Positions 30,106-50,555 are shown, counted from the stretch's first letter. The stretch: DNA of 64,000 nucleotides from Candidatus Marinarcus sp. (GCF_048571275.1 NZ_CP182357.1:1142125-1206124), one strand, 5' to 3'. Numbers and translations: made by a program. The notes: a model not told the origin generated them from the sequence alone.

Positions 30106-31293
30106 GTGCGAATTTTGGTCAGAGAGTTTATCAAAAAAGAGTCATCGGCGGGGCTTATCCTTATTGGTGTTACGCTCCTTGCCTTAATTTTTAAAAACTC
30201 TTTTTTGTCTGAATACTACAATAACATTTTACAAACGAATGTGACCATAAGCGTGGGTGAAATGCTTGAACTGAATAAGCCCATTTTTTTATGGATCAAT
30301 GATGGGTTAATGGCTCTGTTTTTTCTTTTAATTGGACTTGAAATTAAAAGAGAACTGCTTACGGGACATCTGTCAAGTTTTAAACAGATTGCTTTGCCGG
30401 GTTTTGCCGCTTTAGGTGGTATGCTTTTCCCTGCACTGATTTTTATATTTTTTAATTATGATAACAACTTTGCCTTGCGTGGTTGGGCGATTCCAACGGC
30501 TACGGATATTGCTTTTGCTTTGGGAATTTTGTCTTTGTTGGGTAAGCGAATTCCTGTCTCATTGAAAGTGTTTTTAATGGCATTGGCCATCATTGATGAC
30601 ATTGGTGCTATTGTGATTATATCTATTTTTTACACCTCAGAGTTGTCATATCTCTCTCTTTTATTGGCAGGTGTTTTTTTTGCCATTTTATTGCTGATGA
30701 ATAAAATCAATATTGTACGCATTACAGCATATATTATTATTGGAATATTTCTCTGGATTGCCGTTTTAAAATCGGGAGTTCATGCGACACTTGCTGGAAT
30801 TATTTTGGCATTTACCATCCCTTTAAATGTTAAAATTGAAGAACAAAAACATATCTCTCCCGCAAGAATATTGGAAAAAAATCTGCATTTTTGGGTGGCG
30901 TATTATATTTTGCCCATTTTTGCATTTATGAATGCCGGTGTGGATTTAATGAATATTGATTTTAATGATGTCATAAACCCTGTTTCAATGGGTATTATTA
31001 TGGGATTGTTTTTGGGTAAACAAATGGGGGTAATGTTGTTTGTTTTTCTGGCAGTTAAATTCAACATTGCACAGCTTCCAAAGTGTGCTACTTGGACTCA
31101 AATGTATGGCATTGCAGTATTAACAGGGATTGGATTTACCATGAGTTTTTTTATTGACTCTTTGGCGTATGATGATTCAAATATGTTTTTGCATACGGAT
31201 AAATTGGCTATTTTAGTAGGCTCAATTCTCTCTGGAATAGTAGGTTATACGATTTTACGATATGCAAAAAAGAGAAAGTTGTGTGCCATTTAA
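30106..31293 (+). CDS. nhaA: Na+/H+ antiporter NhaA
   Basis: WINDGLMALFF; GWAIPTATDIAF; AIIDD; SGVHAT; GIGFTMS. Confidence 0.96.
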   Translation: MRILVREFIKKESSAGLILIGVTLLALIFKNSFLSEYYNNILQTNVTISVGEMLELNKPIFLWINDGLMALFFLLIGLEIKRELLTGHLSSFKQIALPGFAALGGMLFPALIFIFFNYDNNFALRGWAIPTATDIAFALGILSLLGKRIPVSLKVFLMALAIIDDIGAIVIISIFYTSELSYLSLLLAGVFFAILLLMNKINIVRITAYIIIGIFLWIAVLKSGVHATLAGIILAFTIPLNVKIEEQKHISPARILEKNLHFWVAYYILPIFAFMNAGVDLMNIDFNDVINPVSMGIIMGLFLGKQMGVMLFVFLAVKFNIAQLPKCATWTQMYGIAVLTGIGFTMSFFIDSLAYDDSNMFLHTDKLAILVGSILSGIVGYTILRYAKKRKLCAI

Positions 31294-31797
31294 GGCAGAT
31301 AAATTTTCCCATTTAAGATTTTTATTTTTCCCTCTAATTCATAAACAAATGTTTTTTCAGCATAATTTTTGATGGCCTCGTCGTAGTTGGGATTGTTTTT
31401 ACAATACTCTAAAAACGCATCTTTTTCTTGGCAAAGGGTATGTCCTGATAGTTCCATAACAAACTCATCTATATCATAAATGGCTTGGGCTAAACCCTCT
31501 TTTAAAAGCTGGTTGGTTCCTGCACTTTGATTAATTTGGTGAGGCAAAACATAAATTTTTTTGTTCATATTTAAAGCAAACTCTACGCTTCTCATGCTGC
31601 CACTGTTTAAATCGGCTTGCGTTACAATTAAAATATCTCCTAAAGCTACAACGATTTCATTGCGTGCTACAAAACTCCATGGAGTTGCAAGAAAATCTGC
31701 ATCATACGCACTTAAAATCAACCCCTCTTGTTCAATGGCTGCAATGAGTTTTTTATTTGTAGCAGGGTACTTTGTATGTAAACCACAGGGACTGACC
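31290..31797 (-). pseudogene. dprA: dprA 3' fragment, separated from its 5' part by the transposon
   Basis: Reads (V)SPCGLHTKYPATNKKLIAAIEQEGLILSAY..WSFVARNEIVVALG..ADLNSGSM; joins in frame with the 50267-50537 fragment. Confidence 0.93.
31793..31797 (+). repeat. 5-bp target-site duplication TGACC (left copy)
   Basis: Identical TGACC at 50267-50271, each directly flanking the terminal TGT/ACA. Confidence 0.95.
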
Positions 31798-31843
31798 TGT
31801 CATATACAAAAACAAACTTAACTCTAAATCACAATATTTAGCC
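31798..31843 (+). repeat. tnsA-proximal transposon end with putative TnsB sites
   Basis: TGTCATAT, then ACAAAAACAAACTTAACT (31806-31823), then a degenerate copy 20 bp on (31826-31843, 11/18 match to the right-end site). Confidence 0.85.
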
Positions 31844-31942
31844 AGTCTTGAAAGATTTCCAACATTAATTAAGTTAAATAGATTATATTAAAAAGGTTAA
31901 ATAAATTGAAAAATATACAAAATAAATTAAACATCCTATCTA

Positions 31943-31971
31943 TTGTAAATCTTGACGAGATTTTATATAAT
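31943..31971 (+). promoter_or_regulatory. Putative sigma70 promoter for a leaderless tnsA transcript
   Basis: TTGTAA-17 nt-TATAAT ending 6 nt before ATG 31978; no Shine-Dalgarno in between. Confidence 0.55.
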
Positions 31972-31977
31972 TTAGAT

Positions 31978-32637
31978 ATGAGTGTAAGACAAATTAAAAA
32001 AAGCTATATATCCTGCACAGGATACTTTTCAAGTTATAAGAATAAAAAACAAGTTACTTTTGAATCAGTATTAGAAAGGGATATGTTTATGTTATTGGAG
32101 TTTGATCCAAGAGTTGTTTCATATATAGAACAACCTTTTACACTTCATTATACTTATTATGATGTAAAACCTAGAAAATATACTCCTGATTTACTGATTA
32201 CATATAAAGATAAGACTCAAACAGTAGTTGAAATAAAGTATAAAGATGAACTGCTTTCAAATCAAGAGCTTGTTCAAAAACTATCTTTAGTTCAAAATGA
32301 AATAAAATTACAAAAGCATTTATCTTTTGAAATATATACTGATGAAATGATAAATAAACAATATATGCTAAATCTAAAACATATTTATAACTTTGTAAAT
32401 ATTAAAGAAGATATAGAAAAAACAAAATTGATTGAAAAAATATTAGATAATACTGGTGCCATTACAATACAAGAAGTACTTAATCAATATGATTCAAATA
32501 AAATGAAACAAACTTTTTTTCTACCCTATATTTGGAACTACGTATTTCATAATATGGGAACACTTGTAAATCAATATGAAAAGTTAACAATGAACTCGGT
32601 TCTAAGGAAAGGATACAGACTCAATGGGAATTATTGA
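31978..32637 (+). CDS. tnsA: TnsA-like endonuclease
   Basis: MSVRQIKKSY..TG N-terminus; FESVLERD; YIEQPF; YTPDLL; VEIKY (PD-(D/E)xK). Confidence 0.88.
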   Translation: MSVRQIKKSYISCTGYFSSYKNKKQVTFESVLERDMFMLLEFDPRVVSYIEQPFTLHYTYYDVKPRKYTPDLLITYKDKTQTVVEIKYKDELLSNQELVQKLSLVQNEIKLQKHLSFEIYTDEMINKQYMLNLKHIYNFVNIKEDIEKTKLIEKILDNTGAITIQEVLNQYDSNKMKQTFFLPYIWNYVFHNMGTLVNQYEKLTMNSVLRKGYRLNGNY

Positions 32638-34480
32638 TCTTAAAATTGGCTCAAAAGTTTTTTTTAACAATGAACTGTGTGAAATAATACGTATAGTTGG
32701 TTTTAATAAAGTAACTATAGTTAAAGATAATAATGGAGATATTCTTGACGTTCCACTAACAGAGCTATCTTCAAAAAAATATCTTGAAAAACCTAAGAAC
32801 TTTATTGAACATTATTCTGAGAAAGAATGGAATATTGCTAAAGAGAGATATGAGATTATAAAAAAGATTGTCTTTACTTCAAGAACAAAAGATGAAGTTA
32901 AATCTATCGCAAAAAAAGCAGGATATAGCTCTGTAACAGTATATAAATGGATAAATCTTTATGAACAAACCATGGAAATAAGCTCTTTAGTGCCACAAAC
33001 CTCATTAAGAGGGAAAAAAGGTAGTAGATTAGATGATAAGATAGAACATATTATTAATCAAATACTTGAAGATTTATATTTAAATAAACAAAGATATGGA
33101 TTTAAAAAAATCTATAATAAAATTTATCTTGAATGTAAAAAGTTAAGCCTTACTCCTCCACATGAAAATACAATTAGAAATAGAATTGAAAAAATTGATC
33201 CCAAAAAAGCAATTAAAAAAAGATATGGACATAAAGCTTCGCAACAATTCCAAAACTATGAAGGAGAATTTCCTGAAGGTAATTATCCTTTAGAGTTTAT
33301 TCAAATAGACCATACTCCTTTAGATATTATTGTTGTAGATAAACTTCATAGAAAACCATTGAAAAGACCATATCTTACATTAGCTATTGATGTATACTCA
33401 AGAATGATTACAGGCATATATGTATCACTTCAAGAACCTGCATATTATAATGTGAGCCAATGTTTATTTAATACATTTACACCTAAAGATAAGCTGCTTA
33501 GACAATATAACGTAGAAGGAGAATGGAATATTTTTGGAGTGCCGCGTATTATTGGTGTGGACAATGGTTCTGATTTAGTTTCCTCTGATATGCAAATGGT
33601 TTGTGATGAATATGGCATTACATTGATGAAAAGACCTGTAGCTCGTCCTCAATTTGGTGCACATGTTGAAAGAGTACTTGGAACAATTAATAAAGAAATA
33701 CATAACTTAGCAGGCACTACCTTTTCAAACATAAATGAGAAAGGTGTATATGATTCAGCAAAAGAGGCTATGTTTACAGTTGAAGAACTAACACAATGGA
33801 TTATTCATTATATTGTGAATGTATATCATAAAAAATATCATCATGGGATTCAAACGACACCCGAAGAAAAATATTTTAAAGGTATATTCGGTGATGAAGA
33901 AACAGCAGGTACTGGAATTTTACCACCAATAACAGATGATATGGAAGAGTTAAGGGTATCCTTACTCCCAACAGAATTTAGAACCGTTCAAAAGGATGGT
34001 ATTACTCTTGATGGCATATCTTATTACTCTGATGTGCTGAGACATTGGATTGGTAAAAAAGATAGTAAGAAATCTAAAATTAAACACAAAATAAAACGTG
34101 ATCCACTCAATATTCAAAAAATATATTTTTATGATCCTGACTTAAAAGAATATTTTGAAGTACCTTATAGAAAAATATCTGCTCCCGTTATGACACTTTG
34201 GGACTTATATGCTTCAAAAAAATATCTTAAAGATGAAAAGATTACAGATTACAATGAAGATGATATTTTTTATGCTTACGAACAATTAGAAGAAATTTCT
34301 AAAAATATAGAGCATAAACATAAAGACCATAAACAAAGAGTTAGAAGAGAACAAAAAGGAATTATAGAAAATCAAAAAGAGCCTAAAACAGAGACTAATA
34401 CCTCTGATAATCAGTATGAAGATTTATTTACAAATATTCAACTATTCCAAGTAAATGAAAAGAGTACTCTAAATGAATAA
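32624..34480 (+). CDS. tnsB: TnsB-like DDE transposase (Mu/Tn7 type)
   Basis: N-terminal HTH (TVYKWINLY); DDE motifs IQIDHT, GVDNGSD, HVERVLGT; RTVQKDGITLDGISY. Confidence 0.92.
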   Translation: MGIIDLKIGSKVFFNNELCEIIRIVGFNKVTIVKDNNGDILDVPLTELSSKKYLEKPKNFIEHYSEKEWNIAKERYEIIKKIVFTSRTKDEVKSIAKKAGYSSVTVYKWINLYEQTMEISSLVPQTSLRGKKGSRLDDKIEHIINQILEDLYLNKQRYGFKKIYNKIYLECKKLSLTPPHENTIRNRIEKIDPKKAIKKRYGHKASQQFQNYEGEFPEGNYPLEFIQIDHTPLDIIVVDKLHRKPLKRPYLTLAIDVYSRMITGIYVSLQEPAYYNVSQCLFNTFTPKDKLLRQYNVEGEWNIFGVPRIIGVDNGSDLVSSDMQMVCDEYGITLMKRPVARPQFGAHVERVLGTINKEIHNLAGTTFSNINEKGVYDSAKEAMFTVEELTQWIIHYIVNVYHKKYHHGIQTTPEEKYFKGIFGDEETAGTGILPPITDDMEELRVSLLPTEFRTVQKDGITLDGISYYSDVLRHWIGKKDSKKSKIKHKIKRDPLNIQKIYFYDPDLKEYFEVPYRKISAPVMTLWDLYASKKYLKDEKITDYNEDDIFYAYEQLEEISKNIEHKHKDHKQRVRREQKGIIENQKEPKTETNTSDNQYEDLFTNIQLFQVNEKSTLNE

Positions 34481-35414
34481 TATTAAACTTACTAAAAAAG
34501 CACAAGAATTACTACTGCAAAGTGATGAAGAAAGAATTAAATATATTCTAGAAGATAGATGGATAAACTATCCAATAGCGCAAAATATACTTGACAAACT
34601 AGAAGATATTTTTAAGTATCAAAAAAATAAAACTAGAGTTACCAGTATGCTTGTGGTTGGATCATCAAATAATGGTAAAACTTCATTACTTGAAGAGTTT
34701 AAAAGAAGGCACTTAAATTATGAGATATTTAATGAAAAAAATGAAGATGAAACAACTAATGATTTTACCGAATTATATGATGCGACAGGAATACCAGTAC
34801 TCTATCTTCAAGCTCCAACAGAACCCAGTGAATCAAGATTATATGACAATATATTTTCATCCATTGATACGACGGTAAAGAAAAGTGAAAATATATCAAG
34901 AAAACAATATCTGGTTGAATACTATATGAAGCTATTAAATGTTGAAATGATTATAATTGATGAAATTCATAATATACTTAGTGGATCAATCGCAAAACAA
35001 AAACAAACGATGAATGCAATTAAAAATCTAAGTAATCAATTAAAGATACCAATTGTTTTAGCTGGTATAAAAGACTCATTAAGAGCGATAAGTACAGATA
35101 CTCAAATAAGTAGTAGATTTAGACCTGTATATTTAACAAAGTGGCGATTAGATAAAGAGTACATCTCTTTATTGGCAACATTTCTATCTACCTTACCACT
35201 AAAGAAAGAATCAAATATTTTAAATCCTGATGTTGCGCTAAAGATACTTGATATATCCGAAGGATACATTGGAGATATTATAGGAATTTTAAAACAATCA
35301 GCTGTTTATGCGATAAATACTCAAAGTGAAAGAATCACTATTAACGAAATAAGAGAGTGTGGATATATTTCTATGTCACAAGTACATAAAGAGAGTATTC
35401 TAAAAGATGTATGA
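34473..35414 (+). CDS. tnsC: TnsC/TniB AAA+ ATPase
   Basis: RWINYP; Walker A GSSNNGKT; Walker B IIIDEIHN; QISSRF. Confidence 0.9.
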   Translation: MNNIKLTKKAQELLLQSDEERIKYILEDRWINYPIAQNILDKLEDIFKYQKNKTRVTSMLVVGSSNNGKTSLLEEFKRRHLNYEIFNEKNEDETTNDFTELYDATGIPVLYLQAPTEPSESRLYDNIFSSIDTTVKKSENISRKQYLVEYYMKLLNVEMIIIDEIHNILSGSIAKQKQTMNAIKNLSNQLKIPIVLAGIKDSLRAISTDTQISSRFRPVYLTKWRLDKEYISLLATFLSTLPLKKESNILNPDVALKILDISEGYIGDIIGILKQSAVYAINTQSERITINEIRECGYISMSQVHKESILKDV

Positions 35415-36538
35415 TAAGACACATTGGTTTAGCAGAATTCATAGATAAAAATTTTTTAATTATTCCAAAACCATATGATAATGAATTATTAAGTTCTTGG
35501 TTTGTAAGAACGGCTTATATGCATTATATGAAGCCACAATCTTTTTTTAATATGCATTTTGGATTAAAAAATAGAGGTTATTTCATAAGTGATATCGATA
35601 CAAAATTGAGTAATGAAATTTATTCTAAAATGCAAGATAAATGTAAAAATAAAATTGATATTAACAAATTAACATTAAAATATTATGCAAAAAACATCCT
35701 AGAAGAAGGCATAAAAGATTCTACAAATCATTTTATCTCAAATATGAAGTTTTGCCCTAAATGTATAAAATTAACAAATAAAAAGTTCTATTTTAGAAAA
35801 GAATGGAAACTTGTATTTTATACTGCTTGTTTAAAACATAAATGTTATTTATACGATTCTTGTCCTCATTGCTTGAGCAAAATCTTAATTACTAAAATGT
35901 ATAAAGATAAATTACCATTTACATATTGTTATAAATGTGGTTTTGATTTAAAACAATCAAAAGTAATCCCTATAAAAAAAAGACATTTATATGGACTTGA
36001 GGCAATAAAAAAACTTTTATTTATGCTTGAGAATGGTTATATCCAGTTAAAAAATACAACAGCATATTCTTTTCATTTTTTTATTGTTTTAACTCAATTG
36101 ACTAAATTAATAATGAATAAAAGAAACTTTGTATTTTTACATACTCATCCACTATTTGAAATCATTGAACTAATAAGAAATAAAGAGTTAATAACAAACA
36201 AATCTATATATCTTCAATTAGCTATAAATGAAAAGTATGCCTTATTCGGCTTACTTATGAATATATTTGAAAACTATCCTAATAACTTATCTAAGTTTAT
36301 TTTATCAAATAAACTAACCCATTGGGATATGGTGAGAGAGATTAAGTATTTACCATTTTGGTACAATGAAATAGTAAATGACATTATTCCTAGATATATG
36401 GCGTTTGGAGATATGGTTACTGAAATTGAAATTGAGAATGCAAAAAAGTATTTATTATCTCAAAATTTAGAAATCACTAAAGCCAATTTATCAAGGTTAT
36501 TTGGGCGTACGAATTATTTTAATAAGTACATTTTGTAA
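35411..36538 (+). CDS. tniQ: TniQ/TnsD-family target selector with C-terminal extension
   Basis: PKPYDNELLSSWFVR; zinc motifs FCPKC, RKEW..ACLKH..DSCPHC, YCYKCGFDL; ~190-aa C-terminal tail. Confidence 0.88.
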   Translation: MIRHIGLAEFIDKNFLIIPKPYDNELLSSWFVRTAYMHYMKPQSFFNMHFGLKNRGYFISDIDTKLSNEIYSKMQDKCKNKIDINKLTLKYYAKNILEEGIKDSTNHFISNMKFCPKCIKLTNKKFYFRKEWKLVFYTACLKHKCYLYDSCPHCLSKILITKMYKDKLPFTYCYKCGFDLKQSKVIPIKKRHLYGLEAIKKLLFMLENGYIQLKNTTAYSFHFFIVLTQLTKLIMNKRNFVFLHTHPLFEIIELIRNKELITNKSIYLQLAINEKYALFGLLMNIFENYPNNLSKFILSNKLTHWDMVREIKYLPFWYNEIVNDIIPRYMAFGDMVTEIEIENAKKYLLSQNLEITKANLSRLFGRTNYFNKYIL

Positions 36539-36664
36539 TCTTAAAATTGTTTTCTAAAAATTTTATATATGCTATTTATAGGAATCTCCTTTTAATAAAA
36601 AAACAACATTATTTAACATATAATACATTTTAGTGATTTTTCAATTCCAAGGCAAAGGCAATTT

Positions 36665-36946
36665 ATGTTAAATAAAGACACCTTAATTAGTTTAACTACT
36701 AAGCACAACTTGAATATTATTTTTAAAAACACTTCTTTTGAAATTATTACTCCTGTTAATTATCTTTTTTATGATGGGAAAAAAAGTAAAGAATATGTCT
36801 ATGAAAACTTTTTAGTTAATACCTTAAAAGATGGAAAGCAAAATGCTATTATATATGCCTATTTTGAGATAAAGAATAATGCAACTATCAATTTAAAGGA
36901 TAAAAAGTTTGAAGCTCCTCAGTGTAATTCTACTATTAATTGTTAA
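36665..36946 (+). CDS. Small hypothetical protein
   Basis: 93-aa ORF with AAGG upstream; 3' end overlaps the DNase start by 38 nt. Confidence 0.45.
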   Translation: MLNKDTLISLTTKHNLNIIFKNTSFEIITPVNYLFYDGKKSKEYVYENFLVNTLKDGKQNAIIYAYFEIKNNATINLKDKKFEAPQCNSTINC

Positions 36947-37652
36947 TCTTTCATTTGCCAATGAAACTATTGATTCTTTCTCTCAGTCCAAAAAACTATT
37001 AAGAAATATTTATAAAGACCATCAAGTTACTTTTTATGCCAATTGTAAATATAACTACAAAGATAAAAACAATATGATTGATAAAAGTTCATGTGGATAT
37101 GTTCCTCGAAATACTTATACTAAATCAGGGAAAAAAAATATAAGAGCCAATCGAATTGAATGGGAACATATCATTCCTGCAGAAAACTTTGGAAGACAAT
37201 TTGTTTGTTGGAGAGAAGGAGATGAACAATGTATTGATTCTAAAGGCAAAGCCTACAAAGGACGAAAGTGTTGTTCTAAGGTAAATCAACAGTTTAAATA
37301 TATGGAAGCTGATATGCATAACCTGGTACCTGCTATTGGTGAATTAAATGCTGATAGGTCAAACTTTAAATATGGGATGATTGAAGGTGAAGATAGAGCT
37401 TATGGTAAAGATGTAGATTTTGAAGTAGATTTTAAAAATAAACGAGCTGAACCAAAAGAAGACATCAGAGGGAATATTGCACGAACTTACTTTTACTTTG
37501 AAGGGAGGTATGGAATGAAAATATCCAAAAAAGAGAAACAACTGTTTGAAGCTTGGAATAAACTTGACCCTGTTGATGATTGGGAGATTGAGAGAAATAA
37601 GAGGATTGAAAAGCTTCAAGGGAATGGAAATAATTTTATAAAGGAAAGTTAA
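36909..37652 (+). CDS. Exported endonuclease I (EndA/Dns family DNase)
   Basis: AAGGA RBS plus TTG start; signal peptide MKLLSVILLLIVNLSFA; RIEWEHIIPAENFG; MEADMHNLVPAIGELNADRSN; conserved Cys pattern. Confidence 0.92.
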   Translation: MKLLSVILLLIVNLSFANETIDSFSQSKKLLRNIYKDHQVTFYANCKYNYKDKNNMIDKSSCGYVPRNTYTKSGKKNIRANRIEWEHIIPAENFGRQFVCWREGDEQCIDSKGKAYKGRKCCSKVNQQFKYMEADMHNLVPAIGELNADRSNFKYGMIEGEDRAYGKDVDFEVDFKNKRAEPKEDIRGNIARTYFYFEGRYGMKISKKEKQLFEAWNKLDPVDDWEIERNKRIEKLQGNGNNFIKES

Positions 37653-38305
37653 TGTTTTGGAAAAAATATAAATATGATGATATTAAGTCTGTTGAATTCA
37701 ATGAATTAAAAAAGAGAATTAAAATTGTAGTTATTGATGATGAAGAAGATAGTTTCCCAATTAAACACATGCAATCACTTGGGTTTACAATTGAATATTG
37801 GAAAGAAATTGACATCAATAACATTAAAAGATTAGAAGATGGGAATTTTGATCTTATTATTCTTGATATATATGGGGTAGTTAATCCTCAATTAGGTCAG
37901 GATTTAACAGGTTTGGATATCTTAAAATCATTGAAGCATAGAAATCCTAAACAACTCATAATCGCTTTTTCTGGTAGTAGCTACGAAATAGATAAGGGAG
38001 AATTTTGGAAATTAGCTGATGATTTCTTGAAAAAACCTTCAACAACTTTTGAGACTAAGGAAAGATTAGAAAATATTATAAATCAAAATTATTCTATAAA
38101 TACTCTTATCAATAATCTAAAAATGGTTATTTCGAGACAAATACAAGATTCTAATAAGGAAAGTGATATAGAAAAAATTATTTCAAAGGCAATTATTACT
38201 AAAAATGGAAATATAGATTTTGTCAAACTTGTAAGGCTTGGTGTTCAAGATACAGCTGCAATTACAACAATTGTTACAACAATAATCAATATTATGAAAG
38301 AATAG
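37652..38305 (+). CDS. Receiver-domain protein without a recognisable DNA-binding output
   Basis: VVIDDE; LIILDIYG (phospho-Asp); IAFSG; FLKKP. Confidence 0.75.
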   Translation: MFWKKYKYDDIKSVEFNELKKRIKIVVIDDEEDSFPIKHMQSLGFTIEYWKEIDINNIKRLEDGNFDLIILDIYGVVNPQLGQDLTGLDILKSLKHRNPKQLIIAFSGSSYEIDKGEFWKLADDFLKKPSTTFETKERLENIINQNYSINTLINNLKMVISRQIQDSNKESDIEKIISKAIITKNGNIDFVKLVRLGVQDTAAITTIVTTIINIMKE

Positions 38306-38315
38306 GTTTAAAAAA

Positions 38316-39401
38316 ATGGATACAAATAATTTTAAAATATTACTTGAAACAACATTATTCCCTTTGATGGATTTTAAAAAAAATCAGTACGATGGATTAA
38401 TGCTTAACATACACCCTTATTGCAAATCTTGCGATAAAGAATGTTTAATAAAAGGGCAAGGAAAAGATTATAAAGTTTCACTTTGTTCTGACAATATATT
38501 ATTTTTTAAAATTTCTATTAACAATAGAAGTTTTATAATTCATAGTCTTCGAAATGATTATTCAATACTTAATAGACAAGATAAAAAAAAATATCCCAAT
38601 AAGATTTTTTTTAAGCATATTGAAAAAGTTAAAAAATGGGTTGATAAAATTGAAGAAATAATTCAGTTAGATACAAAAAAGAAAAATATTATAAACTTAA
38701 ATAATTCTGTCTTTATTCATGATATGAAAAAAGTTTATTCAACAATTCTGAGAAGAATGGAAGATTATATAAGTGAAAATTCTACTTCCTCTTATCATTA
38801 TGATGAAAATTTAAGATTTCTTGATACAAATTTATTATGTATATATAAAGCAATTAATTTGCTTGATTATCAATTTAATAATGTAAACTATATTTCAAAT
38901 CCAAATGCCGTACAATATGGACAATTACGTGAAACTCATATATATAAAGCAATTGATAAACTTAACAGAATTTTGAGAACTAATTCTAAAATTAAAATTG
39001 AATTAAAAGGTACTTCCCATAATCAATTATTTTTATATGAGAGTTTTATAAGTTTGCCCTTTATTTTAATTGATAATGCTCTTAAATATTCATTAAAAGA
39101 TCAAAGTATCGAAATTCATATCAATGACTTAGATGATAAAGTATTAATAGAAATTATTTCTTTTAGCCCAAAAATAAATAGTGAAGACAAAAAACATATT
39201 TTTGAAAAATTTCAAAGAGGAGATAATGTTTGTACTCTTGTTCCAGAGGGGCAAGGTATCGGATTATATTTAGCAAAAGTTATTGCTGATGCTCATAATA
39301 TTGAAATTAAATTGGAAGAAAAAAATGGTACAACAACAACGATAGATGACGTTTTATATTGTGAAAATATTTTTAAATTTATCGTACAATCTCTCCAATA
39401 A
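38316..39401 (+). CDS. Soluble histidine kinase / HATPase_c protein
   Basis: FIHD (candidate H-box); LIDNALKYS (N); FQRG (F); GQGIGLYLAK (G2); no TM segment; Cys-rich N-terminus CKSCDKEC. Confidence 0.78.
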   Translation: MDTNNFKILLETTLFPLMDFKKNQYDGLMLNIHPYCKSCDKECLIKGQGKDYKVSLCSDNILFFKISINNRSFIIHSLRNDYSILNRQDKKKYPNKIFFKHIEKVKKWVDKIEEIIQLDTKKKNIINLNNSVFIHDMKKVYSTILRRMEDYISENSTSSYHYDENLRFLDTNLLCIYKAINLLDYQFNNVNYISNPNAVQYGQLRETHIYKAIDKLNRILRTNSKIKIELKGTSHNQLFLYESFISLPFILIDNALKYSLKDQSIEIHINDLDDKVLIEIISFSPKINSEDKKHIFEKFQRGDNVCTLVPEGQGIGLYLAKVIADAHNIEIKLEEKNGTTTTIDDVLYCENIFKFIVQSLQ

Positions 39402-39538
39402 TATTGACTATAAAAAGAGTTGATGGAATATAAATAAAGCAAATTATTAGGAGAGTTATAAATTTAAATGTCTTCTAAAAAGTAGACACAAATTCATTTA
39501 GTTTACCTTATATCAATAGATGATATTTAGATATAATT

Positions 39539-39580
39539 GGCATTATCTATTAAATATTTGCATCTTTTATTGAGAATTAC
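39539..39580 (+). repeat. Internal 42-bp repeat, copy A
   Basis: GGCATTATCTATTAAATATTTGCATCTTTTATTGAGAATTAC; 35/42 identical to copy B. Confidence 0.8.
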
Positions 39581-39652
39581 AGTAGTGACGACAACCTCTC
39601 CAGCAAATTTAGAGAATTTTTTATTTTTTTATCCATAACATTTCCTATGAGT

Positions 39653-39679
39653 AAAAAAGCAGAGGATATTTCCTCCTCT
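39653..39679 (-). terminator. Possible intrinsic terminator after the small Cys/His protein
   Basis: Minus strand AGAGGA-GGAAATA-TCCTCT-GC-TTTTTT. Confidence 0.45.
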
Positions 39680-39693
39680 ACTTAAATTTATCA

Positions 39694-39912
39694 TTAACTT
39701 GTATGACATGATGGACAACAATAGTAACAACCATTGATTCTGTTGTTAGGCCATCTTCTCTTAGCCTCATTGATTGCATCATGGCAGCTATTATGGTAAC
39801 CTAAATCAACTTGATTTTCTGGATTTGGCATGTAGCTACAACCTGTTGTTGCATTATGAACTTCATGATCACCATTGTTTTGTTGGTTTTTATTAATTAC
39901 AAACTTTGCCAT
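39694..39912 (-). CDS. Small Cys/His-rich, probably metal-binding, protein
   Basis: 72 aa: NKNQQNNGDHEVH..GC..P..N..LG..SC..A..NGCYYCCPSCHT, a pattern I recognise from mobile-element hypothetical proteins. Confidence 0.75.
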   Translation of the reverse strand: MAKFVINKNQQNNGDHEVHNATTGCSYMPNPENQVDLGYHNSCHDAINEAKRRWPNNRINGCYYCCPSCHTS

Positions 39913-39915
39913 TTA

Positions 39916-40134
39916 TTAGCCTTTCACATTTCTTGGGTCATTGCCATAAGAATTTTTCTCACGAATTTGACCATTTTGACCATGAAGTGTAAATTCAGCA
40001 TTTAACTTTTTTGCTAAACTAATCCCATATTCTCTACATTCAACTTGTGTCGAACATACTTTACTAGCTCTTTCATTGCCAGCAACTTTTGCTTTCCATC
40101 CATCAGGATGCTTTGAAACAGATACTCTGTTCAT
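39916..40134 (-). CDS. DUF2188-family protein
   Basis: HPDGWKAKVAGNERAS..TQ; LHGQNGQIREKNSYGNDP. Confidence 0.8.
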   Translation of the reverse strand: MNRVSVSKHPDGWKAKVAGNERASKVCSTQVECREYGISLAKKLNAEFTLHGQNGQIREKNSYGNDPRNVKG

Positions 40135-40290
40135 ATTAGTTCCTTATATTTAATAAATGTAACTAATCGAAACAAAATCACTTACTTTATTAAGAGTTAT
40201 GTATTGATTTTAATAATAACTTAATAGATTTAGTATAATTCTGTGTAACTTTCTAATAGCACATTAATCGTAACACAATGTGTCAACAAT

Positions 40291-40371
40291 CTTAAATTTT
40301 ATATATTTTAAGCGGCAACTTTTATATATAAAATTTAAGTAACTTATAATTGGCACTCAATTGTGCCAATT
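40291..40371. repeat. Cluster of inverted repeats downstream of jetD
   Basis: 16-bp perfect IR CTTAAATTTTATATAT (40291-40306 / 40324-40339, 17-nt spacer) and AATTGGCAC-N6-GTGCCAATT (40348-40371). Confidence 0.8.
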
Positions 40372-40490
40372 GCCAGAGTAATTATATAACTTTAGTCAGG
40401 CTTTGTCAAGTGAATTATGCTAAAAATGTAAAAATTATGTAAATAGGAAAATAATGATTTTCTGGGCTTAGTCTAAAACAAAATTACTTT

Positions 40491-40532
40491 AGCATTATTT
40501 ATTGCATATTTGTATCTTTTATTGAAAATGAC
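40491..40532 (+). repeat. Internal 42-bp repeat, copy B
   Basis: AGCATTATTTATTGCATATTTGTATCTTTTATTGAAAATGAC; 7 nt from the jetD stop. Confidence 0.8.
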
Positions 40533-40539
40533 ATTTATT

Positions 40540-50220: not shown

Positions 50221-50266
50221 AGTTAAGTTTTTTGTTGTTGAGTTAAGTTTTTTGTTGTATATGACA
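50221..50266 (-). repeat. tnsE-proximal transposon end with two tandem TnsB sites
   Basis: AGTTAAGTTTTTTGTTGT at 50221-50238 and 50241-50258 (20-bp period), then ATATGACA. Confidence 0.92.
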
Positions 50267-50271
50267 TGACC
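50267..50271 (+). repeat. 5-bp target-site duplication TGACC (right copy)
   Basis: Matches 31793-31797. Confidence 0.95.
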
Positions 50272-50537
50272 ATAATGGTGTTGTTTGCACCTGCTGCTTG
50301 ATGTGCAATGGCATCCACGCCAAGTGCTCCCCCACTTACAATGCAAAAACCTGCAGAGGACAATTTGTTTGCGATGGTATGGGTGAAAATTTTTGTACTG
50401 GGAAAAGGATGTCTGGTGCCCACAATGGAGACTTTGGGTTTTTCTAAAAGTTGCGTATTTCCAATATAAAAGAGTTTTTCGGGATATTTTTGCATCACAT
50501 CAAGTGCATTTACATGAAAATCTAAACTCTGAATCAT
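50267..50537 (-). pseudogene. dprA: dprA 5' fragment
   Basis: YPEKLFYIGN; KVSIVGTR; IVSGGALGVDAIAHQAA; NTIMV; after the junction the frame continues into the transposon end and stops at 50223. Confidence 0.93.
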
Positions 50538-50555
50538 TGTCATCCTTTGGTAACA

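What the first reader, a model, noticed from the sequence alone, without database searches (positions are those of the whole stretch)
36909..37652. Exported EndA/Dns DNase as cargo: a second anti-transformation layer
The protein has a signal peptide and an intact EWEH/HNL/NxxRSN nuclease core. Element-borne exported DNases are known to suppress natural transformation (Dns of C. jejuni CJIE1, IdeA of Vibrio ICEs). Together with the dprA disruption and Wadjet, one transposon would block DNA outside the cell, at RecA loading and as plasmids, which looks like a dedicated anti-horizontal-transfer element (inference).
Basis: partly seen in the sequence, partly recalled or inferred. Interest (0 to 1): 0.72.

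Follow-up and report, generated by a model that had tools for sequence, protein, structure and literature searches.

The report
Exported DNase carried by a transposon
An intact, secreted DNA-cutting enzyme of the well-known EndA/Dns family sits as cargo on a Tn7-like transposon that has split the competence gene dprA. Close relatives of this enzyme repeatedly ride on mobile elements that break DNA-uptake genes, which fits, but does not prove, a role in blocking natural transformation.

Summary
Window 36909-37652 (+) encodes a 247-aa Endonuclease I (PF04231, E 5.6e-37). It has a Sec-type signal peptide, all catalytic residues and six invariant cysteines. The AlphaFold model (pLDDT 93) superposes on Vibrio cholerae extracellular endonuclease I (TM 0.91).

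The gene is true cargo. It lies 370 bp after tniQ inside an 18,469-bp Tn7-like transposon (31798-50266) with TGT/ACA ends and a 5-bp duplication, TGACC. Removing the element in silico restores dprA.

Dns-family DNases on mobile elements are known to block transformation (CJIE1 Dns, IdeA/SxnA). The window's enzyme belongs to a mobile EndA clade (bootstrap 79%). Wherever an element-borne Campylobacterota EndA had an identifiable insertion site, that site was a transformation-type gene: dprA twice, comM seven times, a secretin once.

Three results count against a "dedicated" design. None of about 13 other dprA-targeting relatives has EndA within 10 kb. Three sister elements carry an intact replacement dprA. 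Wadjet and PDC-M43 are ordinary Tn7 defence cargo.

No function was tested. This is a new member of a known kind, of moderate interest.

The parts
36909..37652 (+). endA/dns-like gene: exported Endonuclease I, 247 aa, TTG start
   Evidence: Pfam PF04231 E 5.6e-37. PDB relatives at E about 1e-56. AlphaFold pLDDT 93.3 and Foldseek 2G7E TM 0.91.
36909..36959 (+). Sec-type signal peptide (residues 1-17, MKLLSVILLLIVNLSFA, predicted cleavage before NE)
   Evidence: Read from the sequence. Solved mature domains align from residue 22. No dedicated predictor was run.
37158..37169 (+). EWEH codons (E84, W85, E86, H87): general base His and metal-site Glu of the beta-beta-alpha-metal site
   Evidence: Invariant in 42 homologues.
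37317..37364 (+). HNL...NADRSN segment (H137-N152), including the metal ligand N147 (37347-37349)
36896..36900 (+). AAGGA ribosome-binding site, 8 nt before the TTG start
   Evidence: Sequence.
36665..36946 (+). orf93: orphan 93-aa gene whose last 38 nt overlap the endA start. It travels with endA only in the innermost clade.
   Evidence: 58-63% identical copies in L002/L059, L023 and L053. Codon-position differences 23/12/34. Only one other cluster among 1.8 billion representatives.
37652..38305 (+). Receiver-domain protein whose start overlaps the endA stop (TAATG). Matches the PDC-M43A candidate defence protein.
   Evidence: Pfam Response_reg, weak. PADLOC PDC-M43A E 1.8e-10.
38316..39401 (+). 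HATPase_c protein. Matches the PDC-M43B candidate defence protein.
   Evidence: Pfam HATPase_c E 1e-13. PADLOC PDC-M43B E 8.5e-21.
31798..50266 (.). Tn7-like transposon, 18,469 bp. Ends are TGTCATATAC... and ...GTATATGACA, with repeated GAGTTAAGTTTTTTGTTGT motifs at the right end.
   Evidence: 43-nt terminal inverted repeat, 81% complementary. Sequences. GC about 27% against about 34% in the flanks.
31793..31797 (.). Target-site duplication TGACC, left copy
50267..50271 (.). Target-site duplication TGACC, right copy
31906..36538 (+). tnsA (31906-32637), tnsB (32624-34480), tnsC/tniB (34473-35414), tniQ (35411-36538)
   Evidence: Pfam Tn7_TnsA-like_N, rve plus Mu-transpos_C, TniB, TniQ.
31290..31797 (-). 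dprA 3' fragment (from about codon 92)
   Evidence: Pfam DNA_processg_A profile positions 130-210. In-silico excision restores a 258-aa ORF.
50267..50543 (-). dprA 5' fragment (codons 1 to about 92)
   Evidence: Pfam DNA_processg_A profile positions 20-111..
40540..48079 (-). Type I Wadjet: jetD (40540-41706), jetC (41666-45277), jetB (45237-45881), jetA (45881-47278), plus an adjacent ParB-like gene (47279-48079)
   Evidence: Pfam JetD_C, SbcC_Walker_B/AAA_29, DUF4194, JetA, ParB_N. PADLOC JetD1 E 2.7e-79 and JetA1 E 4.7e-59.
48560..50212 (-). 550-aa protein with no family match, conserved at the right end of related elements. Possibly TnsE-like.
   Evidence: No Pfam hit. 26% identical homologues in L002 and L036. 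Weak match (E 4e-5) to a TnsE_C-bearing protein of L050.

Best explanation
The gene encodes a functional, Sec-exported, Mg-dependent non-specific endonuclease of the Endonuclease I (EndA/Vvn/Dns) family. It is carried as cargo by a Tn7-like transposon.

Proposed mechanism:
1. The 17-residue signal peptide is removed on export.
2. The six conserved cysteines form disulfides in the periplasm.
3. The beta-beta-alpha-metal site (His87 as general base; Glu86 and Asn147 at the metal; Arg119) cuts double-stranded DNA in the periplasm and probably outside the cell.
4. This destroys incoming DNA before it reaches the inner-membrane uptake channel.

For the element, the likely benefit is to lower transformation in its carrier and in neighbouring cells. 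That would make replacement of the interrupted dprA by an uninterrupted allele, which would delete the element, even rarer than dprA loss alone makes it.

Shown here: family, intact active site, export signal, purifying selection, cargo status, membership of a mobile EndA clade, and recurrent location of EndA in elements that break dprA, comM or a secretin.

Inferred: DNase activity, cellular location, the effect on transformation, and that this effect is what selection acts on.
For: Enzyme identity and integrity:
- Family and catalytic residues.
- Fold: pLDDT 93.3, and Foldseek to 2G7E at TM 0.91 and rmsd 1.9.
- Purifying selection.

Cargo status:
- Terminal repeats and the 5-bp duplication.
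- dprA is restored by in-silico excision.
- The element has the same depth as its flanks in the source metagenome.

Mobile clade:
- NJ bootstrap is 79% for the clade and 99% for the inner clade.
- Its members are: the window; UBA4036 L002/L059, a Tn7-like element in dprA; L025 Marinarcus and L050/L069 Arcobacter BM504, Tn7-like elements abutting comM cut at profile positions 350 and 285 of 499; and L024 Arcobacter F2176, a tyrosine-recombinase element abutting a 3'-truncated GspD/PilQ/HofQ-class secretin.

Further EndA genes on the element side of a truncated comM: L081, L084, L097, L101 and L112. EndA also lies among Tn7 cargo in L075 and L087.

Control: outside Campylobacterota, only 2 doubtful comM hits among about 50 EndA loci.

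Precedent in the same protein family:
- V. cholerae Dns blocks transformation, and the ICE-borne Dns homologues IdeA and SxnA do so too (PMC7693049; PMC12378983).
- C. jejuni prophage dns correlates with non-transformability and extracellular DNase activity (PMC10893306).
- The anti-loss rationale is stated in PMC4372405.
- Aliarcobacter butzleri, a relative of the host, is naturally transformable according to the title and abstract of PMC8308473. I did not read the full paper.
Against: - No experiment was possible and no RNA data exist. The window comes from a sediment metagenome.
- dprA is already broken, so an extra block is largely redundant in the carrier cell.
- EndA is not a regular feature of this transposon family. 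None of about 13 other dprA-targeting loci has it within 10 kb of tniQ.
- Three sister elements carry an intact dprA. This argues that loss of competence is not what the family is selected for.
- Arcobacteraceae also have chromosomal EndA in conserved SecA-LolA synteny. The cargo copy could therefore keep a housekeeping role.
- I did not measure how often mobile elements in these genomes use competence genes as insertion sites. The association may only reflect comM and dprA being the main landing sites.
- About half of the Campylobacterota EndA loci could not be classified, because contigs were short or nothing in my panel matched.
Confidence: 0.5

Rival explanations
1. Hitch-hiking housekeeping or nutritional nuclease. 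The cargo copy does what chromosomal EndA or Dns does in many bacteria: it degrades environmental DNA for phosphate and nucleotides. This helps a sediment host and so helps the element persist. Any effect on transformation is a by-product.
For: - Chromosomal orthologues at 67-71% identity lie in conserved SecA-LolA or ordinary metabolic neighbourhoods in Halarcobacter, Malaciobacter and others.
- The mobile clade nests within the Arcobacteraceae EndA radiation.
- Endonuclease I genes sit on 123 plasmids of many genera with no known link to competence.
- Nutritional roles of extracellular DNases are summarised in PMC4372405.
- The source is a sediment metagenome.
Against: - It does not explain why every identifiable insertion site of an EndA-carrying element is a transformation-type gene.
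- It does not explain why the neighbours are almost always defence genes rather than metabolic ones.
Confidence: 0.25
2. Remodelling of biofilm or extracellular DNA, or interference with neighbours. The secreted DNase alters the DNA matrix of biofilms or removes DNA that competitors could use.
For: C. jejuni element-borne extracellular DNases prevent and dissolve biofilms (PMC4372405). The signal peptide and the family's known extracellular members support export.
Against: Nothing in the locus points to biofilm functions. This reading also leaves the link with competence-gene insertion unexplained.
Confidence: 0.1
3. Part of a defence operon. EndA works together with the PDC-M43-like pair encoded immediately downstream, for example as an effector against incoming phage or plasmid DNA crossing the periplasm.
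For: - The endA stop overlaps the start of the receiver-domain gene (TAATG), so they are probably co-translated.
- The pair matches PADLOC PDC-M43A and PDC-M43B.
- L050 also has a receiver/HATPase gene next to EndA.
- The whole cargo is defence-rich.
Against: - EndA has no PADLOC match.
- In L002, L023, L025, L097 and others, EndA occurs without this pair.
- The L050 neighbour is not detectably homologous to the window's pair and lies on the opposite strand.
- A periplasmic enzyme does not normally meet injected phage DNA (general knowledge).
Confidence: 0.08

Closest known systems
Vibrio cholerae Dns / extracellular endonuclease I (PDB 2G7E, 2G7F) and V. vulnificus Vvn (1OUO)
   Same: Same Pfam family, same fold (TM 0.89-0.92) and identical catalytic residues. 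Both are exported. Dns degrades transforming DNA and blocks natural transformation (PMC7693049).
   Different: - The Vibrio enzymes are chromosomal. Dns is repressed by HapR/QstR during competence.
- Identity is only 43-46%.
- The window protein has two insertions (about residues 68-74 and 105-117).
- It has a six-cysteine pattern, including an extra pair at C108 and C121, rather than the Vibrio pattern.
IdeA (ICE VchInd5) and SxnA (SXT) of Vibrio cholerae
   Same: Both are Dns homologues carried by a mobile element. Neither is switched off in competent cells, and both abolish transformation (PMC12378983; PMC7693049).
   Different: The vehicle is a conjugative element, not a transposon, and the host is a gammaproteobacterium. 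Those elements are not reported to interrupt a competence gene as well. I did not have their sequences, so I did not measure identity to the window protein.
Dns (CJE0256) of the Campylobacter jejuni Mu-like prophage CJIE1
   Same: Same phylum. It is an exported DNase on an integrated element, and its loss restores transformation (PMC12378983, PMC10893306). A Campylobacter phage (CAM-P21) and four Helicobacter prophage records carry Endonuclease I genes 40-42% identical to the window protein.
   Different: The vehicle is a prophage, not a Tn7-like transposon. The sequence is only distantly related, at about 40%. The window protein's nearest relatives are Arcobacteraceae EndA, not the prophage genes.
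Tn6022/AbaR-type and Tsy elements that insert into comM
   Same: These are Tn7-like or related elements with a competence gene as their dedicated insertion site (PMC10293859). Several EndA-carrying relatives found here also sit in comM.
   Different: The window's element uses a TniQ-family selector and targets dprA. dprA does not appear in the main text of the Tn7 target surveys or of the 2025 review that I searched. EndA cargo is not mentioned there.
E. coli EndA (deoxyribonuclease I)
   Same: Same family. It is a periplasmic non-specific endonuclease.
   Different: The NCBIfam equivalog model NF011716 scores 222 bits against a cut-off of 372. The window protein is therefore a family member but not an EndA equivalog. 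E. coli EndA is chromosomal.

Membership tests
Endonuclease I (Pfam PF04231; EndA/Vvn/Dns) | Sequence match above the family's gathering score over the whole domain | tested here: met
   128.2 bits against a cut-off of 25, profile positions 20-233 of 235.
Endonuclease I (Pfam PF04231; EndA/Vvn/Dns) | Beta-beta-alpha-metal active site: Glu-His (EWEH), the Asn metal ligand, and Arg/Glu second-shell residues | tested here: met
   E84, E86, H87, R119, E133 and N147 align with Vvn E77, E79, H80, R99, E113 and N127 (Vvn residue roles from my own knowledge). All are invariant in 42 homologues.
Endonuclease I (Pfam PF04231; EndA/Vvn/Dns) | Fold of the solved family members | tested here: met
   AlphaFold pLDDT 93.3. 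Foldseek hits 2G7E, 2PU3 and 1OUO at E about 1e-20 and TM (by target) 0.89-0.92.
Endonuclease I (Pfam PF04231; EndA/Vvn/Dns) | N-terminal signal peptide and disulfide-forming cysteines (export to an oxidising compartment) | tested here: met
   The signal peptide was read by eye, with an n-region, h-region and SFA|N cleavage motif. Six invariant cysteines. No signal-peptide predictor was available, and the disulfide pairs were not determined.
Endonuclease I (Pfam PF04231; EndA/Vvn/Dns) | Mg-dependent non-specific DNase activity | not testable with these tools
   Needs an enzyme assay.
E. coli-type EndA equivalog (NCBIfam NF011716) | Score above the curated equivalog cut-off | tested here: not met
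   222 bits against a cut-off of 372.
Mobile-element-encoded transformation-blocking DNases (Dns of CJIE1, IdeA, SxnA) | Gene lies inside a delimited mobile element | tested here: met
   It lies inside a transposon bounded by terminal repeats and a 5-bp duplication. Excision restores dprA.
Mobile-element-encoded transformation-blocking DNases (Dns of CJIE1, IdeA, SxnA) | Homology to Dns-type exported nucleases | tested here: met
   43% identity to V. cholerae endonuclease I over the whole domain. IdeA and SxnA are Dns homologues according to PMC7693049.
Mobile-element-encoded transformation-blocking DNases (Dns of CJIE1, IdeA, SxnA) | Expressed in competent cells, and lowers transformation frequency | not testable with these tools
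   No RNA runs hold the sequence. A transformation assay is needed.
Tn7-like transposon (as the vehicle) | tnsA-tnsB-tnsC-tniQ operon, TGT...ACA ends with repeated TnsB-type sites, and a 5-bp target duplication | tested here: met
Tn7-like transposon (as the vehicle) | Site-specific insertion shared by relatives with a related target selector | tested here: met
   Relatives with TniQ 33-53% identical have the TnsA-proximal end next to dprA cut at residues 89-92 (L026-L029, L031) or 52-61 (L032-L034, L036, L043).

The most novel reading that the evidence does not exclude
In Campylobacterota, at least three unrelated kinds of mobile element have each combined two hits on natural transformation. 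The elements are TniQ-directed Tn7-like transposons in dprA, Tn7-like transposons in comM, and a tyrosine-recombinase element in a secretin gene. The two hits are insertion into a DNA-uptake or recombination gene and an exported Dns-type DNase drawn from one shared mobile EndA clade. Some sister transposons take the opposite route and carry a replacement dprA. This would be comparative evidence that escape from transformation-mediated deletion is a selected, modular trait of these elements.
Probability: 0.35. Interest if true: 0.7.

Novelty: new member of a known kind. Interest (0 to 1): 0.5.

Why it matters
Exported DNases on prophages and conjugative elements are among the few proven ways in which mobile DNA shuts down natural transformation. 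This finding extends that picture to Tn7-like transposons and to environmental Campylobacterota.

It also gives a concrete, testable pattern. The same nuclease clade travels with elements that also break dprA, comM or a secretin. If that pattern survives a proper census and a transformation assay, it supports the idea that transformation acts as a genome-cleaning mechanism that mobile elements are selected to disable.

If the pattern does not survive, the gene is simply one more accessory nuclease in a defence-rich transposon.

Tried and rejected
- **Close TniQ relatives in species-representative genomes.** A search with the single protein found none. A profile of database hits was needed.
- **orf93.** No Pfam or PADLOC match. 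Only one other cluster among 1.8 billion representatives. It is not related to the small ORFs beside chromosomal EndA. The AlphaFold model is unusable (pLDDT 40.6). I therefore cannot support the idea that it is a nuclease inhibitor.
- **Promoter and terminator scan of 36400-40600.** It gave no more promoter-like sites than shuffled sequence (33 against 30.4 ± 5.6). The only terminator-like sites lie after the HATPase gene.
- **Expression.** No RNA runs hold the sequence.
- **Empty dprA site in the source population.** Contigs from the source runs cover the element and its flanks at equal depth. No credible joint skips the element; the listed joints rest on 21-23 letters.
- **EndA as part of a known defence system.** No PADLOC hit.
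- **P0047 context.** Not on record.
- **Original papers.** The IdeA and CJIE1 papers (PMC4547284, PMC2655492) are not held. I relied on later open papers that describe them.
- **comM 3' fragments.** I looked for them inside the EndA loci to delimit those elements. None lies within the 10-kb flanks, so element lengths and left ends remain unknown for L081, L084, L097, L101 and L112.

Full report
**The gene**

Window 36909-37652 (+) is a 247-aa ORF with a TTG start, preceded by AAGGA 8 nt upstream. It matches Pfam Endonuclease_1 across the whole domain (E 5.6e-37). It matches the solved Vibrio enzymes Vvn, V. cholerae endonuclease I and V. salmonicida endonuclease I at E about 1e-55.

In the HMMER alignment they line up with Vvn Glu77, Glu79, His80 and Asn127. 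Arg119 lines up with Arg99 and Glu133 with Glu113. The roles of those Vvn residues are from my own knowledge of the Vvn structure paper.

The N-terminus, MKLLSVILLLIVNLSFA|NE, has the shape of a Sec signal peptide, and the solved mature domains begin aligning at residue 22. I had no signal-peptide predictor, so this point rests on inspection.

Compared with the Vibrio enzymes, the protein has two insertions (about residues 68-74 and 105-117) and a different cysteine pattern. All six cysteines and all catalytic residues are invariant in 42 Campylobacterota homologues.

An AlphaFold model built on that alignment is confident (pLDDT 93.3). It superposes on V. cholerae extracellular endonuclease I at TM 0.91 and rmsd 1.9 Å.

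Substitutions relative to the closest homologues fall mainly on third codon positions. In detail: this is an intact gene under purifying selection for an exported nuclease.

**The vehicle**

Upstream lie tnsA, tnsB, tnsC/tniB and tniQ. The region 31798-50266 begins TGTCATATAC and ends GTATATGACA, with a 43-nt imperfect terminal inverted repeat. It is flanked by a direct 5-bp repeat, TGACC. Its GC content is about 27%, against about 34% outside.

The flanks are the 3' and 5' parts of dprA. Deleting the element and one copy of the repeat in silico restores a 258-aa DprA reading frame.

The endA gene therefore lies inside an 18.5-kb Tn7-like transposon, 370 bp after tniQ. The other cargo is:
- a receiver/HATPase pair that matches the PADLOC candidate system PDC-M43, whose first gene overlaps the endA stop codon;
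- a DUF2188 gene;
- a type I Wadjet system with a ParB-like neighbour;
- a 550-aa protein with no family match at the right end.

The window comes from a sediment metagenome. The element has the same depth as its flanks there. No RNA data exist.

**Where the relatives of the nuclease sit**

The nearest homologues are from Arcobacteraceae, followed by Sulfurimonas. A neighbour-joining tree places the window protein in a clade with 79% bootstrap support, and 99% for the inner group. Every member of that clade with a readable context is on a mobile element or island:
- **UBA4036 L002/L059.** The orf93-endA module is 81% identical in DNA to the window's. It lies in a Tn7-like element with a related end (...GTAAATGACA), inserted in dprA about 30 codons from the window's site, next to a host gene 83% identical to the window's.
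- **L023.** The same module lies beside a tyrosine recombinase, a RelA/SpoT gene and a CBASS system.
- **L001.** EndA lies next to SbcCD-like and ABC-3C genes.
- **L024, Arcobacter sp. F2176.** A three-recombinase element starts right after a secretin gene that covers only PilQ profile positions 2-306 of 428.
- **L025 (Marinarcus aquaticus) and L050/L069 (Arcobacter sp. BM504).** These are Tn7-like elements whose far end abuts comM cut at profile positions 350 and 285 of 499.

By contrast, homologues at 67-71% identity in Halarcobacter, Malaciobacter and others lie in ordinary chromosomal neighbourhoods. These include a conserved SecA-LolA-EndA arrangement. The cargo gene therefore looks like a captured Arcobacteraceae endA that now moves between elements.

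**A wider look**

I ran a profile search over species-representative genomes and then a tblastn panel. This found further Campylobacterota EndA genes on the element side of a 3'-truncated comM:
- Sulfurimonas (L081, L084);
- Arcobacter caeni (L097);
- two Aliarcobacter chromosomes (L101, L112).

L025 and L097 share the same junction...TTAGAAATGACA|CAAGGACAAGG, in the NPCPCG codons of comM. In L075 and L087, EndA lies among defence cargo a few kb from tniQ-tnsC-tnsB.

Counting unique Campylobacterota loci gives:
- ten beside a broken transformation-type gene (dprA 2, comM 7, secretin 1);
- two more in Tn7 cargo with the target out of view;
- three in other islands (L001, L023, L067);
- four in conserved chromosomal settings;
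- about twenty that could not be classified, mostly on short contigs.

Among about 50 EndA loci from other phyla, only two doubtful comM-like hits appeared.

**What this does and does not show**

- V. cholerae Dns blocks transformation.
- The ICE-borne Dns homologues IdeA and SxnA make strains non-transformable (PMC7693049; PMC12378983).
- C. jejuni prophage dns goes with extracellular DNase activity and non-transformability (PMC10893306).
- One paper already proposed that such DNases protect the element from being lost by allelic exchange (PMC4372405).

Endonuclease I genes also occur on Helicobacter and Campylobacter prophage records and on 123 plasmids. A Dns-type gene on a mobile element is therefore a known kind of thing.

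The new part is the vehicle, a Tn7-like transposon, and the recurrent pairing with insertion into competence genes.

That pairing is suggestive. comM loss only weakly lowers transformation (PMC7693049), so a DNase would add a real second block in those elements. However, I could not measure how often mobile elements in these genomes use comM or dprA regardless of cargo. The association may therefore be a by-product of landing-site preference.

**Evidence against a dedicated design**

The window's TniQ has relatives at 33-53% identity in Aliarcobacter lanthieri, Sulfurovaceae, Sulfurimonadaceae and Sulfuricurvum. In these the TnsA-proximal end abuts dprA cut at residues 89-92 or 52-61. None has an EndA within 10 kb of tniQ. 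Their cargo is restriction-modification, radical-SAM/HxsD, NACHT, GGDEF and similar genes.

Three Sulfuricurvum members carry a complete dprA inside the element. These cargo copies are 91% identical to each other but only about 58% identical to the host copy they interrupt. Those elements give back what they break.

dprA is therefore best seen as a conserved landing site. Loss of competence is a cost that some elements compensate, and this one may exploit it. Wadjet and the PDC-M43-like pair fit the general finding that Tn7-like cargo is rich in defence systems (PMC8649781).

**Verdict**

- Observation: confirmed.
- Interpretation: partly supported.

I put about 0.9 on "active exported DNase carried as transposon cargo". 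I put about 0.5 on the full explanation, in which blocking transformation is the selected role.

The main rival is a hitch-hiking nutritional nuclease (0.25). Biofilm remodelling (0.1) and coupling to the downstream defence pair (0.08) trail behind.

This is a new member of a known kind, of moderate interest. It comes with a testable comparative pattern and straightforward experiments.

Noticed in passing
window 31290-31797 and 50267-50543; loci L026-L036, L043: The transposon belongs to a family of Tn7-like elements whose TniQ-type selector directs insertion into the dprA coding sequence. There are two sites, at about codons 89-92 and 52-61. dprA does not occur in the main text of the Tn7 target surveys or of the 2025 review on mobile elements versus competence that I searched.
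   Followed up: partly
L036 16768-17538, L043 17928-18698, L035 7457-8230: Three Sulfuricurvum members of the dprA-targeting family carry a full-length dprA as cargo. The cargo copies are 91% identical between elements but about 58% identical to the interrupted host gene. This looks like a replacement for the gene they destroy.
   Followed up: yes
window 36665-36946: orf93 is an orphan gene whose 3' end overlaps the endA start. It is found only with the innermost EndA clade (L002/L059, L023, L053), shows a coding-like substitution pattern, and has one other cluster among 1.8 billion representatives. No usable structure model was obtained.
   Followed up: partly
window 37652-39401: A receiver-domain protein and a HATPase_c protein with a Cys-rich N-terminus match the PADLOC candidate defence pair PDC-M43A/B. 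The first gene's ATG overlaps the endA stop codon, so the three genes probably form one operon.
   Followed up: partly
window 48560-50212; L002 6499-8145; L036 18914-20551: A protein of about 550 aa with no Pfam match is conserved as the last gene at the right end of these elements. It shows a weak pairwise match (E 4e-5, shared IP.Y.VA.R.YF.S motif) to a TnsE_C-bearing protein of L050. It may be a TnsE-like second target selector.
   Followed up: partly
L024 1469-8450 and 19808-19992: In Arcobacter sp. F2176, a GspD/PilQ/HofQ-class secretin gene stops at about 70% of its length, directly before an element with three tyrosine-recombinase-like genes. That element carries EndA and, 9 kb further on, a second, fragmentary Endonuclease I gene. 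I could not tell whether this secretin is the one used for transformation.
   Followed up: partly
L037 2328-2981; L045 5649-6341: More distant TniQ relatives (25-30% identity), one of them in a Peptococcaceae MAG, have the TnsA-proximal end next to the 3' part of comM (from about residue 290). The dprA-targeting selectors are thus related to comM-targeting ones.
   Followed up: partly
L002 83-1021, L023 1-900, L059 3955-4893, L026 20414-21134: A XerC/D-like tyrosine recombinase gene lies just upstream of the orf93-endA module in several elements and recurs in the cargo of a relative. It might move cargo modules between elements.
   Followed up: no
window 39694-40134; L002 3477-3916: Two adjacent 72-aa genes on the minus strand, one Cys-rich and one DUF2188, are shared at 77% DNA identity with the UBA4036 element. 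They form a second small conserved cargo module.
   Followed up: no
window 47279-48079: A ParB-like gene (ParB_N plus HTH_ParB) sits directly upstream of jetA in the same orientation, as an extra member of the Wadjet cluster.
   Followed up: no
L001 and L002 (UBA4036); L003 and L074; L006 and L078: Several Campylobacterota genomes hold two EndA genes. In UBA4036 both copies belong to the mobile clade, and no SecA-LolA-type chromosomal copy was found.
   Followed up: no
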